A stretch of 64,000 nucleotides of DNA from Gekko japonicus (taxonomy: Eukaryota). Of the stretch, positions 54,001 to 63,000 are shown piece by piece. Every line of letters begins with the position of its first letter. The first letter of the stretch is position 1. Position numbers: made by a program. The DNA lies in assembly GCF_001447785.1 (NCBI RefSeq), contig NW_015163630.1, forward strand, positions 37,272 to 101,271. Reading direction: 5' to 3'.

Positions 54001-57000
54001 CTTAGAGGCCAACAAGATTTTCAGGGTATTGTCAAAGCCTTTGTCAAAGCATTGATTCTCAACAGTCATACCCTGGAAATCTTGTTGGTCTCTGAGTTGC
54101 TCCTGAACTTGTCTCAAGTCGTTCTACCGCAGATCAACATGGGTACCCTCTGAGACTATGCTCACTGTGACTGTTAATAATGATTGCAACGTTTTGTGTG
54201 TGTGTGTGCATGTGTGTGTGGTGTTTTGCCAGTGCACAAGAGTGCATGCTCACATCAGTAAATATACCAACAAAAGAAAGAAAGAAAGAACAAAGTCCAA
54301 GTCCAGTGTCACCTTTAAGACCAACAAAGGTTTATTCAAGGTATAAGCTTTCGTGTGCACGCACGCTTCTTCAGTACACATGAAAGCTTATACCTTAAAT
54401 AAAATTTTGTTGGTCTTAAAGGTGCCACTGGGCTCAAGCCTTGTTCTGCTGCTTCAGTCTGACACTACTGAATCTATGCACACACACAAAAAACCCCTCA
54501 CCCTCAACACAATCATCCTGCGCAATCACATCAACATCAGTTTTTCAATGTTTTATCAGTGTGCACAGAGCCATCTGGAGCACAGAGAAGAAATACTCAT
54601 GAGCAGTGTTCCCTCTAAGCTGAGTTAGTGTGAGCTAGCTCATAGTTTTTTAGCCTCCGGCTCACACATTTTTTTTTATAAAGTTTTATTTCCCTCTCCT
54701 AAAAAGGAGAGAATTTTGCTTTTACAATAGAAAATTAGGGAGGGGATATAGAGGGATAAAGAAAAGTGTTGAGTGATGTTAAGTATTAGTAAATTAAACT
54801 TTTTTAAAAAATTAAAGTTATAGTCTAAGCTTCTTCTGTGGTTAGGCAATCTTCTTTTCTTCTCTATTTTTCAAAACCAAATAGTTAATATGTTAGTAAT
54901 GTCCCTTTGGGGTTAGTATTACTTTTATAGCATAATCCAAAATAGTTAGTTTTGGGGGCCTTTCCCTTTTTTGTCCCTTAAGTTGTACTTTGTGCCAGTC
55001 GCTCCTTTGTCTTCCTCATCCTTCACCTCTCCCTCAGAACTGCTGTCCTCTCCGCTACCTCCCTACATCCACTTGGTGAGTTCTTTTTTTTTTTTAACAG
55101 TTTTATTTAAGTTTTTTTCACAAATATACAACCATTACATTGATATTTTAACATGTTATCTGTGTAAGTCTATTACAGATCATTATGCTCTATCCATTTG
55201 TAAAAATCTGCCCATCTTTCTTTAAACACCTTATCATCTTTACCTGACAAAATGAGTGTTAATTTATCCATTTCTGCTACTTCCATTAATTTCTCTACTA
55301 TTTCCTTTCTTTTAGGTAGCTTTTCTTGCTTCCAGTATTTGGCAATCAAAATTCTAGCCGCTGTGAGCATATATGTTAATATATAATAATTATTCCCTTT
55401 ATATTCATTCGGGATAATATTTAACAAGTAAGTCTCCGGATTTAATTTTAGATTTAAATGCAGCATATCCTTTATCAAGTCATTCACACTTTTCCAAAAC
55501 TTATACATTTTTTCACAATTCCACCACATGTGGAGGAAAGTCCCTACGTTGTTTTTACATCTCCAGCAGTTTTTATTAGCAGTTTTATATGCTTTAGATA
55601 ACTTTTCAGGGGTCCAGTACCATCTATGGAATATCTTAAATATGTTTTCCTTAAATGCTACTGCCCGCATTAATTTCATTGATTTCCAAACTTTTGACCA
55701 ATCCTCGATTTGTATGGTTTTTCCCAAGTCCTTCATCCAAAGAATCATAACATTCTTTATATTTTCGCTAAAAAGATAGTCCTCAAGAAGGAACAAATAT
55801 GTTTTTTGGATAAGTTTGTCGTTTGTTGACAACCATATTTTGTCCAGATCTGTTTGGGTGTTTACAAATTCCCCATTTTTGTCTTTGTTATATCTATCTT
55901 GGACTTGCATCTTCTCCCACCATGTTAAATGGATATTTTTGTCTATTAATCTTTCTAGAGGTCTTAGTTTATTTTCTTCATCTAATAATACATCATATGA
56001 TATAGCTTTTTCTTTTGACATTAATTTTGTATTAATAAATGCCTCCAGGGGGGATACCCATCTTGGTGTTTTGTTGTAGAATCTATATTTCATCTCTTTC
56101 CACACCTTAATTAGTGCAGCTCTAATAATATGGTTATGAAAATTGGAGTGTACTTTATCTTTTTCATACCATAGGTACGCGTGCCACCCCATGTAGAGGT
56201 CGTGGCCTTCTAAATGGAGTGTTCTCCAATTTTTTAACTGGATCCAATCTTTAATCCACACCAATGCCGCAGCTTGGAAATATAGTTGCCAATTCGGAAG
56301 GCCCATTCCACCTCTCTCTTTTTTATCTTGTAGTATCTTTAATTTTATACGGGCTCTCTTTGGGTGCCAGATGAAGGACCTGACTATTTTATCCATATCC
56401 AGAAAGTACTGCTTTTTCTTCAAGATTGGGAGATTTTGTGCTAAAAATAAAATCGACGCTGGTTCTTGGTGTAAGTCATTACAAGCGGTTTGGCCAATCC
56501 TATGCCAAACGTTGGATGCGGCAAAGGCCGCTTACAAACTGCAGGCTGACAGAGGTCGGGTGGTGGGTTGGGATACTGTTTCTGTTTGTTAGTGTTACAC
56601 CTAGATACTTTACTCTCTTTACTATTTGTAGGTTAGATAGCTTTTGTATTTCGTTTTCTACATTTTGGGGGCAGTTTTTGGTTAAAATCTTTGTCTTTTT
56701 ATAATTAATTTTGAGACCAGCCGCACCTCCATATTCCTCTATTTCCTTTAATAGGTTTCTAACGGTTGTTGTCGGGTTTTCTAATATGAAGACTAAGTCA
56801 TCTGCAAAAGCTTGTAGTTTATACTCTTCATCTTTGATTTTCAATCCTTTTATAGATGGATTTTTTCTAATATTGTCATTTAAGGATTCAAGTATGAAGA
56901 TGAATAGTAGTGGTGATAGCGGGCACCCTTGCCTAGTGCCTTTCTGGATCTCTATTTTTCTAGTTATCTCACCGTTTACTACAATGCTTGCTTGTTGTTT

Positions 57001-60000: not shown

Positions 60001-63000
60001 ACCCTTTTCTGTTACTTCCTGCTCCTGATGCCATTATTTACTGTATTTACTGTACTTGCTGTAATTGTTGTGTTTATTTTCGCTTGGGTATTTTTTGTTA
60101 CCCTTTAATAACTTTTTTTTTTTTTACCCTCTCTTTTGGATCACACTGGGTGCTAGTCTACCTTTAAGTGTCTCTGCCTTAGGTTGTATTTATGTTTACT
60201 TTTGGTTGCACGTATATATGTAATGTCACTTTAATTCCACTTTATTCTACTTTATTCTAATTTCAATTAAAGTCTCTTAATTTCCCCTTCTCTCCTTCAC
60301 TCGTGTCTTCCTCTCTGCTGTTCACTTCCACTTCTGTTCACCCCTATGCGCTATTAACCTTGCCTCTTTGTAAACAAGCGTCTCTTTTAGCTTCCGGGTT
60401 CTGCGTCTCCTCCTGTAACTTTCCTCCGCGTCTACTTGCTTCCGCTGCTGTTTTTTTTTCCACTGTTCAACTGCTCAGCCGTCCCTCTGCTCTTGTCTCC
60501 TCTTCCTGGTCTGTCTCCACCTCTTTTGTCACGCCTCCCTCTCCGCGCTGCACTGTGACGTCACCTCTCCTCCGCTCCTTCTCGTCGCCGCCGAGATCGA
60601 AGGGAAAAGGAAAAAACGCCTCGTCACCCGGGAGCCCTCTCCTCCTCCGTCTTAAAGGAACCGACTTGTTCTGCAAACTGGAGATAAAGTTATAGGTTAT
60701 GTAATATTTATTTTCCAATCCTTTTGCGCTTAACTGATTTTCGTTCCTCTTTCTGTGCGCTCTGTTAGTAGCCGCTTTTTCCCCCCCCCTCTAGCCCCTT
60801 CCCACCCTTGCGCACAGCCTCTTAGTTCACCCCTCCTTTCTGCTCTTTAGTTTTCTTTTAAGCCTGTCGCACTTTGCATTTAATAATAATAAATTATAAA
60901 TGTACTTAGCTTCGCCTATTGTTGGGCAGTTCTCTTTGTAGACTCCTATGGTTCTGTGGTCTCGGCTATTGCAGGAGCTGACGGGACTTCTCGTCTCTCT
61001 TGCTTCTCACGCCTCCCTGCCTCGGAGCAAACCCAGAATTAACTGGGGGGGGTCGCCACCCTCCCCAGACCTGGGGGCGAGCTCCTTGCTAAGTCTCTCT
61101 CTACGGGAGAGAACTTTGCTTGTTGTATTTAGTCAATGGGAGGAGTAGAAAAGAGAAGAACGCTCAGAGCTCGAAAAGAGAAGAACGCGCAGAGCTCTCT
61201 CTCCGTGCGACCTCTCTCGTCGGGACCGGAACCGGATCCTCCAAGAAAGGTTATTCTCGATTTAAGTTTGTTATTCTCATCTAGTAGTGTGTCATATGTT
61301 ATTCTACTGTGTTTTGCCATAAGTGTTGGCTTCACAAAAGCTTCCATTGATGAGACCCATCTAGGAATTTTTCTATAATATCTCTGTTTAATTGGGTCCC
61401 AAACTTTTACTAATGCTCCTCATATTATATGGTTCTGGAAATTGGAATGGATCTTATCCTTCTCGTACCAAACGTACGAGTGCCATCCCATATATAGGTC
61501 GTGCCCTTCCAACTTTAAACATCTTAAATCTTCCAACTTAATCCAATCTTTAATCCAACAAAGTGCAGCAGCCTGATAGTAAAACTTCCAATTCGGGACA
61601 CCAAAAACCCCTCTTTCTTTTTTCTCCTGTAGTAATTTTAATTTTATCCTTGCTCTTTTTGTATGCCAAATAAATTGCCTGGTTACTTTATCCAACTCTG
61701 TAAAGAAATTGTTTCTCTTGAGGACTGGAATATTCTGAGCTAAAAATAGAAATTTTGGCAATATGTTCATCTTAATCGTGGCAGTTTTCCCCATAAGAGA
61801 TAATTGCAGTTCTTTCCATTTGGCTAAATCTCTTTTAATCTCCCCCAATAATTTGTTATAGATTATTGTTTCTATTTGACAATGTAATCCCCAGATATCT
61901 GGCTTTTTCCACAATCTTCATATCTGATATTTTTTTAATTTCTTGAATCGTATCCTGAGAACAATTTTTAGTTAACAGTTTGGTTTTCTTAATATTAACT
62001 TTAAGTCCAGCTACTACTCCATATTCTCTTATTAAATCTAGTAAGTGTATCATTGAGACTTGAAGATTTTCCATTATAAACAAGCTTCGCCCCCCCTCTT
62101 TTCTCTTAAAAAAGTCTCTTCTTCCATTGGGGGGGGAAGCCTCCACCTCCCTTCCAATTTTCCCGGGGGAACGAACGCGTTTATAACGCCACTTCAAATT
62201 CGATCACCAACTCACAGTTCATCGCTTTTTCGCTTTTGTTCCGACTTTGCTTTAACGCTCCGACTTTGCTTTAACGCGTTGCTAGTCCCCATGCAGGGCA
62301 TGTCGCAGCCAGGGCCATTTGGGGCAGAGGGGGAGCCTCAATTCCCGACCTTCTGGCTGGCAAGAGGCTTTTTCCCTTAAGCGCTCCCTAGTTTGGAGCC
62401 CTTACCCTAGGGCTCCTTAGGATCTCCGCTTACGTGGCCCCCCGCCAGACTGCATGTGGGCGATCCGGCTCCGGAAGCGCCCCGAGAGCAGGTCGCCATT
62501 TGCGCCGCCCTGGCCGGAAGTCCGGCTCACACATTTTTGTCTTGGCTCAGGAAGGAGGGCTCCAGAGCAAACGAATTTATGCAGGAGCTAATTCTCTCGC
62601 TCACAACTTTAACGCCAGTAGCTCACAAAGTAGAATTTTTGCTCATGAGACTCCACAGCTTAGAGGGAACATTGCTCATGAGGAGTTACCATGTTAGTCT
62701 ATGGCAACCAAAACAACTATCTTGTGTCATTATTAATTATAGCATAAGCTTTTGTGACCCAGAACCCACTTCATTACACTCAGAAGGCATAAAAGTGTGT
62801 GTTCAGGGCATTACCACGATTCTCCAGAACAATTACACAAATCTTAGGTAATACAAAACACACACACCAAAAAAGATCACATAGTATTTTGTGTTTGGCT
62901 GCTTACCATAATCAGCAATGAGCATCTTCTTTGATTCTCCAAAAATCCCAGGCAGTGGCCTGGGAATGCAGCTCCTGGCTGCCACAAGACAGGTGTAGGG

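What the first reader, a model, noticed from the sequence alone, without database searches (positions are those of the whole stretch)
54656..62538. 7.85-kb four-part chimeric L1 retroposon under a single TSD
Seen, minus strand 5' to 3': (A5) GC-rich 5'UTR 62520-62085; (C) internal ORF2 piece of a diverged L1, 62084-61255, lacking both ends; (B) full-length L1 with its own poly(A), 61245-55084; (A3) a separate 3' end, 55082-54674, with its own AATAAA and poly(A). Only the outer boundary has a TSD (18 bp, nick at TTTTT/G); I found none around B or C. Inference: either one TPRT event with serial template jumps across three RNAs, or repeated L1-into-L1 insertion with target deletions.
Basis: partly seen in the sequence, partly recalled or inferred. 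Interest (0 to 1): 0.75.

Follow-up and report, generated by a model that had tools for sequence, protein, structure and literature searches.

The report
Lizard L1 nested inside another L1
A 7.85-kb block of reptile "jumping gene" DNA is a real, clean insertion in which one complete L1 element sits inside the remains of a second L1; this is an unusual but known kind of structure, and the sequence alone cannot say whether it formed in one step or two.

Summary
An exact 18-bp duplication (62538-62521 / 54673-54656) brackets 7,847 bp on the minus strand. Four uninterrupted copies of the ~206-bp MITE that was hit carry that 18-mer, or a one- to two-base variant of it, once. So the block is a clean insertion with no target loss.

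Inside it are:
- A5, which starts with the conserved lizard L1 5' terminus.
- C, an ORF2 fragment of another L1 family (61-70% nt identity to B) with one frameshift and one stop.
- 13 unassigned bases.
- B, a complete L1 with a 1.2-kb 5'UTR, ORF1, ORF2 and an A12 tail. Its ORF2 is broken by a ~115-nt non-homologous patch.
- A3, the last six ORF2 codons, a 3'UTR, AATAAA and a tail.

No duplication flanks B. The window is squamate-like, not human.

A5, C and A3 are collinear, in the same orientation and all unlike B, so two elements suffice rather than three RNAs. My best reading (0.45) is that B integrated into a defective L1 "A", losing about 0.75 kb of A. Template switching (0.25) and retrotransposition of a ready-made composite transcript (0.2) remain open. 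No eukaryotic genome collection was available, so the decisive junction-copy test could not be run. Interest is moderate to low.

The parts
62521..62538 (-). 5' copy of the target-site duplication (minus strand AAAAATGTGTGAGCCGGA). Its last two bases, GA, also complete the L1 5'-terminus motif.
62085..62520 (-). A5: the first 436 nt of an L1 5'UTR. It is a CpG island (observed/expected 0.83). Counting the GA of the duplication it begins GACTTCCGG-N14-ATGGCG. It contains a 19-nt x2 tandem duplication at 62240-62277.
   Evidence: motif compared with passages of PMC5381506
61254..62084 (-). C: an internal ORF2 fragment of an L1 family different from B, running from just after the FADD box to the middle of the C-terminal domain. 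It has one frameshift near 61860 and one in-frame TGA at 61420-61422. The 5' boundary is uncertain by about 8 nt.
61241..61253 (-). 13 nt at the C/B junction that match neither ORF2 homologues nor any verifiable B terminus. They may be filler or the start of B.
60035..61240 (-). B 5'UTR, about 1.2 kb, with two CpG-rich blocks (observed/expected 0.75 and 1.02) separated by AT-rich sequence. It has a 25-nt x2 tandem duplication at 61148-61197, an internal A13 run at 60113-60125 and a TTCCGGT core at 61225-61231.
58889..60034 (-). B ORF1, 381 aa, open, with an L1 RBD-like domain.
56500..58923 (-). B ORF2 N-terminal part, 807 aa, open. It carries the endonuclease and reverse transcriptase domains and overlaps ORF1 by 35 nt.
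56460..56574 (-). Patch inside B's ORF2: about 115 nt, matched in length to the segment it replaces but not homologous to it, and richer in GC. It replaces the conserved ..LSL.GRI..IKMN.LP.. block and closes the reading frame.
55173..56396 (-). B ORF2 C-terminal part, 407 aa, open, ending ..DFYKWIEHNDL-stop.
55084..55172 (-). B 3'UTR (77 nt, containing AAATAAAACT) plus the A12 tail at 55084-55095.
54674..55083 (-). A3: the last six ORF2 codons (ELTKWM-stop), about 390 nt of 3'UTR with a polypyrimidine tract, AAATAAAACT, and a short A tail that runs into the duplication.
54656..54673 (-). 3' copy of the target-site duplication.
62539..62682 (-). Left part of the MITE-like host element that was split by the insertion.
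54596..54655 (-). Right part of the same MITE-like host element.

Best explanation
The block consists of two L1 elements, not four independent pieces.

Element A is a defective, internally deleted L1: A5, joined to C, then the rest of ORF2, then A3. It integrated into a MITE copy by ordinary target-primed reverse transcription at a TTTTT/G nick and made the 18-bp duplication.

Element B is a complete L1 of a different family. It then integrated into A's DNA in the same orientation. Reverse transcription was primed in the A-rich stretch just before A's last six ORF2 codons. B's RNA was copied to its 5' end, and that cDNA end was joined about 0.75 kb upstream in A's ORF2 instead of a few bases downstream. 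This left no duplication around B, removed about 0.75 kb of A, and left 13 nt of filler. This is an L1 insertion-mediated deletion.

What is shown: the outer clean insertion; the identity and limits of the parts; the lack of a duplication around B. What is inferred: that A5, C and A3 are one element; the order of events; that the events happened at this locus; the missing 0.75 kb.

The A5/C join is a separate, earlier internal deletion or splice carried in A's RNA.
For: 1. Four uninterrupted MITE paralogues show that the outer borders are one clean integration with an 18-bp duplication.

2. A5 starts with the conserved lizard L1 5' terminus. The motif occurs once in the window, at the boundary, and in 0 of 100 shuffles (consensus from passages of PMC5381506). 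A3 ends with AATAAA and a tail. The outer ends are therefore those of one L1 transcript.

3. A5, C and A3 lie in L1 order, in one orientation, and none resembles B's UTRs. C is 61-70% identical to B at the nucleotide level.

4. B sits between them with a poly(A) tail at one end and a 1.2-kb 5'UTR with two CpG blocks at the other. That is the mark of a retrotransposed whole RNA.

5. C looks longer dead than B. C has one frameshift and one CGA-to-TGA stop in 830 nt and differs at 2 of 35 otherwise invariant ORF2 columns. B has no stop outside the patch in about 4.8 kb and differs at 1 of 34 such columns, conservatively.

6. In B's own ORF2 the sequence near the homologous tail reads TTTAAAGAA. 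If A had the same, it would offer an endonuclease-type TT/AAAG site exactly at the B/A3 junction. This is inference.

7. This model needs only one unusual step. L1 integrations with target deletion and without duplications are documented in humans (PMC1920257, passages; Gilbert 2002, Symer 2002 and Han 2005 appear in its reference list and I did not read them).
Against: 1. That A5, C and A3 belong to one family is unproven. No close relative of C exists in the protein libraries (best 51%, 56%), and no other copy lies in the window.

2. The outer duplication is perfect (18 of 18), and A5's CpG island (observed/expected 0.83) is as well kept as B's (0.75 to 1.02) in a genome at 0.27. A therefore does not look clearly older than B. 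Aligned CpG sites show no excess decay in C: B-CG over C-TG/CA 0 times, the reverse 1 time.

3. A full-length insertion with a large target deletion is rare where it has been counted. This rests on recall of the human literature.

4. B's patch shows that something beyond plain copying happened to this B.
Confidence: 0.45

Rival explanations
1. One TPRT event with template switching. Reverse transcription starts on the poly(A) end of an A-type L1 RNA and copies 409 nt. It then jumps to the poly(A) tail of a B RNA and copies it to the cap. It then lands back on an L1 RNA inside ORF2 (the same A RNA or a third RNA) and copies 830 nt. It reaches the 5'UTR either through a further jump or because that RNA was already internally deleted, and finishes at the true 5' end. 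One integration therefore gives one duplication.
For: The B-then-A3 half fits the published criteria for template-switch chimeras: a full-length RNA copy fused in sense to a 5'-truncated LINE 3' part, flanked by direct repeats (PMC2104539, Background section).

Double jumps giving tripartite elements under 14-16-bp repeats are reported in a fungus and in mouse (same paper, section 8). Whole or near-whole L1s carrying foreign 5' RNA segments under one duplication are reported in human, 17 cases (bioRxiv 10.1101/2025.02.02.635956, section 24).

The perfect duplication, the well-kept CpG islands of both A5 and B and the near-pristine B fit one recent event. All parts share one orientation. No duplication surrounds B. 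The 13-nt filler sits at the junction where the polymerase would leave B's cap. The length-matched foreign patch inside B could be a further excursion of the same polymerase.
Against: The model needs two or three jumps in one event; published cases have one, rarely two.

The jump from B's 5' end must land inside an RNA. C's 3' end is mid-ORF2, with no A run and no poly(A) signal. By my recollection the known end-to-end jumps land on an acceptor's 3' end.

C violates the criterion that upstream parts are full-length RNA copies. C carries defects that B lacks, so a dead transcript has to be invoked. No RNA family match explains the patch.
Confidence: 0.25
2. The composite formed earlier at another locus, by nesting or by template switching. 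It was then transcribed from A5's promoter through B's weak poly(A) signal to A3's signal, and the 7.85-kb RNA was retrotransposed here as one unit. This amounts to combined 5' and 3' transduction, with one event at this site.
For: The outer 5' end is exactly a conserved L1 transcription-start motif. The outer 3' end follows AATAAA, as expected for one transcript.

The short internal A12 would be the genomic remnant of B's tail. The perfect duplication together with a mildly decayed C fits, because C's defects would predate this insertion.

Bypass of the weak L1 poly(A) signal, giving 3' transduction, is described for mammals (PMC5381506, passage). Promoter capture and 5' transduction are described.
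Against: It adds events without explaining the internal junctions, which still need one of the other two mechanisms. B's ORF2 is broken here, so the RNA needed proteins supplied in trans, or the patch arose later. No second copy of any part is in the window, though 64 kb says little.
Confidence: 0.2
3. Assembly artefact: pieces of different L1 copies were joined wrongly.
For: L1 repeats are hard to assemble. The patch in B could be a local consensus error. No read data were available.
Against: The junctions are not in regions of shared homology, where assemblers switch copies. Two of them coincide with biological termini, namely B's poly(A) tail and the start of B's 5'UTR. The outer borders restore a MITE exactly.
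Confidence: 0.05

Closest known systems
L1 insertion-mediated deletion and nested L1-in-L1 insertion (human and chimpanzee surveys and cell-culture assays; Sen et al. 2007, PMC1920257, passages seen; Han 2005, Gilbert 2002 and Symer 2002 recalled from its reference list)
   Same: A retrotransposed L1 with a poly(A) tail lies in target DNA without a flanking duplication, and target sequence appears to be missing. The host DNA is itself an L1 in the same orientation.
   Different: Here the insert is full length. The deletion of about 0.75 kb is inferred from L1 architecture, not from an empty allele. The species is a squamate in which several divergent L1 families coexist.
Template-switch chimeric retroelements, bipartite and tripartite (Buzdin and Gogvadze; PMC2104539, Background and section 8 read)
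   Same: Sense-oriented fusion of a complete RNA copy to a 5'-truncated LINE 3' end under one direct repeat of 14-18 bp. More than one jump is possible.
   Different: All parts here are L1. There would be three or four parts. One part (C) lacks both RNA ends, which the published criteria do not allow. One jump would have to return to an internal site.
L1 chimeras with 5' appended RNA, 5' transduction and promoter capture (Law and Burns 2025, bioRxiv 10.1101/2025.02.02.635956; abstract and sections 20 and 24 read)
   Same: A near full-length L1 carries extra sense-oriented sequence at its 5' end that starts at a transcription start, all inside one duplication.
   Different: The appended segment here is itself L1 (a 5'UTR plus an ORF2 fragment), and a further L1 3' end follows B's tail. 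Arrival at the same time could not be tested.
Lizard clade 1 L1 families of Anolis carolinensis (Boissinot and Sookdeo 2016, PMC5381506, passages seen)
   Same: Long (about 1.3 kb) 5'UTR with two CpG islands; a conserved 5' terminus GACTTCCGG..ATGGCG; a 3'UTR with pyrimidine tracts ending in AATAAA and poly(A); several divergent families in one genome.
   Different: B's ORF2 is only 40-44% identical to the listed Anolis proteins and 49% to a Varanus protein, so these are other families in another squamate. B's own 5' terminus lacks ATGGCG.

Membership tests
L1 (LINE-1 clade) retrotransposon: element B | ORF1 with an L1-type RNA-binding domain | tested here: met
   Pfam Transposase_22, E = 3.9e-5, 24.3 bits against a cutoff of 22.4
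L1 (LINE-1 clade) retrotransposon: element B | ORF2 with an APE-type endonuclease and a reverse transcriptase | tested here: met
   Exo_endo_phos 1.1e-9 and RVT_1 2.1e-40. The best named relatives are squamate L1 ORF2 proteins.
L1 (LINE-1 clade) retrotransposon: element B | Uninterrupted ORF2, meaning the element is competent | tested here: not met
   The frame is closed by a ~115-nt non-homologous patch at 56574-56460. Of the 15 named homologues tried, all 13 that reach this region lose alignment there; the other 2 give no significant match to it.
L1 (LINE-1 clade) retrotransposon: element B | Its own target-site duplication | tested here: not met
   No shared word of 9 nt or more other than A-runs between the 40 nt after the tail and 60000-62560
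L1 element A, taken as A5 + C + A3 forming one copy | Canonical 5' terminus and 3' poly(A) signal at the outer ends | tested here: met
   GACTTCCGG-N14-ATGGCG occurs once in the window, at 62522-62494, and in 0 of 100 shuffles. AAATAAAACT plus an A run lies at 54690-54669.
L1 element A, taken as A5 + C + A3 forming one copy | All three pieces belong to one family | not testable with these tools
   No other copy in the window. Best protein identity to C is 51-56%. No eukaryotic DNA collection was open.
Template-switch chimeric retroelement (criteria listed in PMC2104539) | The 3' part is a 5'-truncated LINE, the parts are in the same orientation, and short direct repeats flank the whole | tested here: met
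   A3 of 410 nt, all parts on the minus strand, and an 18-bp duplication
Template-switch chimeric retroelement (criteria listed in PMC2104539) | [quoted passage not shown] | tested here: not met
   B qualifies. C lacks both ends, and A5 stops at nt 436 of a 5'UTR.
Template-switch chimeric retroelement | All parts arrived at the same time | not testable with these tools
   This needs orthologous loci or population alleles. Indirect age marks are ambiguous.
L1 insertion-mediated deletion | Target DNA is missing relative to the pre-insertion allele | not testable with these tools
   About 250 codons between C's end and A3's start are missing, judged only by analogy with B's ORF2.
L1 insertion-mediated deletion | An endonuclease-type nick site at the 3' junction | tested here: inconclusive
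   The pre-insertion sequence of A is unknown. B has TTTAAAGAA near the homologous position.
Spliced L1 copy (SpIRE-like), for the A5/C junction | The junction coincides with donor and acceptor sites of the parent element | tested here: inconclusive
   In B the homologue of C's first bases follows an AG (GACTTAG|TC). The parent of A is not available. The SpIRE concept is recalled, not read.
Transduction by a read-through transcript | A source locus with identical internal junctions | not testable with these tools
   No genome of this species was available.

The most novel reading that the evidence does not exclude
A single target-primed reverse transcription event in a squamate in which the L1 polymerase used at least two L1 RNAs of different families. 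It began on a defective A RNA, hopped to the poly(A) tail of a complete B RNA and copied all 6.2 kb. It then hopped back to an internal site of an L1 RNA and finished at a true 5' cap site. The 115-nt foreign patch in B would be yet another excursion. That would be a three- or four-jump, all-L1 chimera under one perfect 18-bp duplication. It would give direct evidence that RNA-level recombination between coexisting L1 families occurs in reptiles, which could help explain how L1 lineages exchange 5'UTRs and 3' ends.
Probability: 0.22. Interest if true: 0.55.

Novelty: new member of a known kind. Interest (0 to 1): 0.3.

Why it matters
Squamate genomes keep many divergent L1 families active side by side (PMC5381506, passages). 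That makes L1-with-L1 joins visible here, whereas in mammals they would be hidden by sequence identity.

If the block formed in one event, it would be an unusually rich record of polymerase template switching between L1 families. It would also suggest a route by which L1 lineages swap promoters and tails.

If it is a nested insertion with loss of target DNA, it is one more example of L1-driven local deletion and is ordinary.

In either case the locus is a clean, datable marker, because the MITE empty site is known from four paralogues. It could be used in population or sister-species comparisons.

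Tried and rejected
- Other copies of A5, C, B or A3 in the window: none by blastn or tblastn. The only extra hit is the BovB-type reverse transcriptase at 23809-24936.
- Similarity of A5 or A3 to B's UTRs. The best local scores were not clearly above shuffles: A3 against B's 5'UTR reached the observed score in 7 of 300 shuffles, A5 against B's 5'UTR in 118 of 300, and A3 against A5 in 62 of 300. I dropped an apparent shared hairpin motif between A3's end and B's 5' region for that reason.
- Linking C to A3 through a full-length ORF2 of C's family. 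The 'longer' protein search gave 3 hits of at most 59% identity, all truncated before the C-terminus. The representative library gave 56% identity at best. I did not fetch or use its unnamed hits.
- B ORF1 against A5, because both contain the peptide ASGAGS near an ATG: no tblastn match. I treat this as chance.
- Short or imperfect duplication around B. The best candidate is a 7-of-10 match with an indel. I rejected it because B is otherwise pristine.
- CpG-decay asymmetry between C and B: counts were too small to use (0 against 1).
- Origin of the patch: no copy in the window, no Rfam match at E up to 5, and its reverse-complement frames are not L1-like.
- Rfam over the whole window at gathering thresholds gave 0 matches. 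Over 61200-62560 at E up to 1 it gave only a sub-threshold DnaX hit, which I take as chance.
- Han et al. 2005 is not held in the library.
- The bacterial and archaeal genome collection, the phage, plasmid and E. coli collections, the structure tools and the complex tool were not used, since none can bear on a reptile retrotransposon junction.

Full report
**Origin of the window.** I do not take this window for human.
- It has no N.
- Its L1 ORF2 is closest to named squamate proteins: Varanus komodoensis 49%, the listed Anolis carolinensis proteins 39-44%, and snakes about 47-51%.
- It also holds a 1,051-aa BovB/RTE-type ORF and a CR1-type reverse-transcriptase tail.
- Genome-wide CpG observed/expected is 0.27.
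- No eukaryotic genome collection was available. All comparisons are therefore within the 64-kb window, with named proteins, and with the literature.

**The outer boundary is real and clean.**
- The 18-nt repeat at 54656-54673 and 62521-62538 is exact.
- The insertion split a ~206-bp MITE-like element with ~27-nt terminal inverted repeats.
- I joined the two flanks over one repeat copy in a script and compared the result with the window only. It matches four uninterrupted paralogues straight across the insertion point, at 88-92% identity.
- In the alignment each paralogue carries the 18-mer, or a one- to two-base variant of it, once.
- So everything between the repeats, 7,847 bp, was inserted with an 18-bp duplication and no loss of target.
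- Five of the nine A's after A3 belong to the duplication, so A3's own tail may be as short as four A's.

**A5 (62520-62085).**
- Counting the last two bases of the duplication, it begins GACTTCCGGCC..ATGGCG.
- Boissinot and Sookdeo give GACTTCCGGTG-N8-ATGGCG as the conserved 5' extremity of lizard clade 1 L1 (PMC5381506, passages).
- The relaxed pattern occurs once in the window, exactly here, and in 0 of 100 shuffles.
- A5 is a CpG island (29 CpG, observed/expected 0.83) with a 19-nt tandem duplication.
- It is therefore the true 5' end of an L1 5'UTR, cut off after 436 nt.

**C (62084-61254).**
- It matches only ORF2, from just after the FADD box to the middle of the C-terminal domain.
- It is 61-70% identical to B at the nucleotide level, so it belongs to another family.
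- It is less decayed than it first looks: one frameshift near 61860 and one CGA-to-TGA stop.
- It shows 2 changes in 35 columns that are invariant in B and at least six named homologues. B shows 1 in 34, and that change is conservative.
- I searched and aligned C's two frame pieces separately and made no joined read-through.

**The C/B junction.** Thirteen bases (61253-61241) between C and B match neither ORF2 homologues nor anything I can assign to B.

**B (about 61240-55084).**
- It has a 1.2-kb 5'UTR with two CpG-rich blocks, as described for lizard clade 1.
- ORF1 is open, 381 aa. The ORF2 pieces of 807 and 407 aa carry the expected domains.
- It has a short 3'UTR, AAATAAAACT and A12.
- B is not intact. 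About 115 nt (56574-56460) are replaced by unrelated, GC-richer sequence of nearly the same length. This removes a block conserved in all the named homologues that cover it and closes the frame.
- The patch has no copy in the window and no Rfam match.
- The remaining ~4.8 kb of coding sequence has no defect. I infer that the patch arose at or after this copy's reverse transcription, or that it is an assembly fault.
- B's exact 5' base cannot be checked without a family consensus. A TTCCGGT core lies 10-15 nt in, but that word is not rare: 5 matches in the window against 2.5 expected.

**A3 (55083-54674).**
- It opens with ELTKWM-stop. This lines up with the ORF2 tails of B (DFYKWIEHNDL) and of Varanus (SFYHWLEKRDYA).
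- It continues with about 390 nt of UTR containing a pyrimidine tract, and ends AAATAAAACT plus A's.
- Its last 19 nt are 89% identical to B's end.

**Search for a duplication around B.** None of 9 nt or more was found other than A-runs. The best imperfect candidate is not credible for so young an element.

**What the anatomy means.**
- A5, C and A3 are in L1 order, in one orientation, and all differ from B. The simplest inventory is therefore two elements: a defective L1 'A' and a whole L1 'B' lying between A's mid-ORF2 and its last six codons.
- By analogy with B, about 250 codons of A are missing at that point. About 4 kb are missing at the A5/C join.
- Whether the three A pieces truly share a family could not be tested. 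Protein libraries hold nothing closer to C than 51-56%, and B is C's closest known relative (67% over 145 aa).
- The A5/C join might be a splice, because in B an AG precedes the homologous base. That is weak evidence.

**Mechanisms, in order of my preference.**
1. *B integrated into A's DNA with its 5' end joined upstream.* The result is no duplication, loss of about 0.75 kb and 13 nt of filler. This needs one unusual step. It fits C being longer dead than B. Insertions without duplications and with target deletions are documented (PMC1920257, passages).
2. *One event with two or three template switches.* The B-A3 half matches the published criteria, and double jumps are known. Whole L1s with foreign 5' RNA under one duplication are known. 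The perfect duplication and the equally fresh CpG islands of A5 and B favour a single recent event. Against it, C lacks both RNA ends, and the jump from B's cap must land inside an RNA.
3. *The composite arose elsewhere and was copied here as one read-through transcript.* This fits the outer ends being a transcription start and a poly(A) site. It does not explain the inner junctions.
4. *Misassembly.* This is unlikely, because the junctions avoid shared homology and two of them coincide with biological termini.

**Age marks do not decide.** If A had sat here long enough to gather about 2-4% change, the chance of a still-perfect 18-bp pair is roughly 0.25-0.5. This is my own arithmetic, not a tool result.

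**Literature.**
- Four searches brought up bipartite and tripartite chimeras, U6/L1 and mRNA/L1 chimeras, and endonuclease-independent insertions.
- They did not bring up an all-L1 four-part chimera in a squamate. That is a statement about those searches only. The supplements, which may list L1-with-L1 cases, were closed.

**Verdict.** This is a real and well-delimited feature. It is a nested or chimeric L1 of a known kind, and the question of one event or two is still open.

Noticed in passing
62539-62682 + 54596-54655; 19645-19850; 63395-63596; 12514-12732; 9934-10137: A ~206-bp MITE-like element with ~27-nt terminal inverted repeats is present five times in 64 kb, at 88-92% identity. One copy is the L1 target. 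The family was not identified.
   Followed up: partly
56460-56574 (minus strand, inside B's ORF2): About 115 nt of GC-richer, non-homologous sequence replaces a conserved ORF2 block of about the same length in an otherwise flawless L1. Its origin is unknown: no copy in the window and no Rfam match.
   Followed up: partly
23248-26403 (minus strand): A 1,051-aa stop-free frame with endonuclease and reverse-transcriptase motifs of BovB/RTE type. It is possibly a young BovB copy. The name is from recall; I ran no family scan on it.
   Followed up: no
52806-53342 (minus strand): A 178-aa frame that looks like the C-terminal part of a CR1-type reverse transcriptase. The name is from recall.
   Followed up: no
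62240-62277 and 61148-61197: Short tandem duplications near the start of both L1 5'UTRs: 19 nt x2, 100% identical, in A5, and 25 nt x2, 96% identical, in B. The paper passages say Anolis clade 1 5'UTRs show no tandem duplication.
   Followed up: no
54287-54447 and 13544-13628: A second inverted-repeat (palindromic) element lies just downstream of the insertion site, with a related copy about 41 kb away.
   Followed up: no
60113-60125 (minus strand, B 5'UTR): An A13 run 78 nt upstream of ORF1's ATG, in the context GT-A13-G. This resembles B's own tail junction (GTT-A12-G). I could not tell whether the long 5'UTR is itself composite.
   Followed up: no
62477-62500 (A5) and 60011-60034 (B ORF1 start): Both have an ATG followed within a few codons by the peptide ASGAGS, encoded by different codons. 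tblastn found no wider similarity, so this is probably chance.
   Followed up: partly
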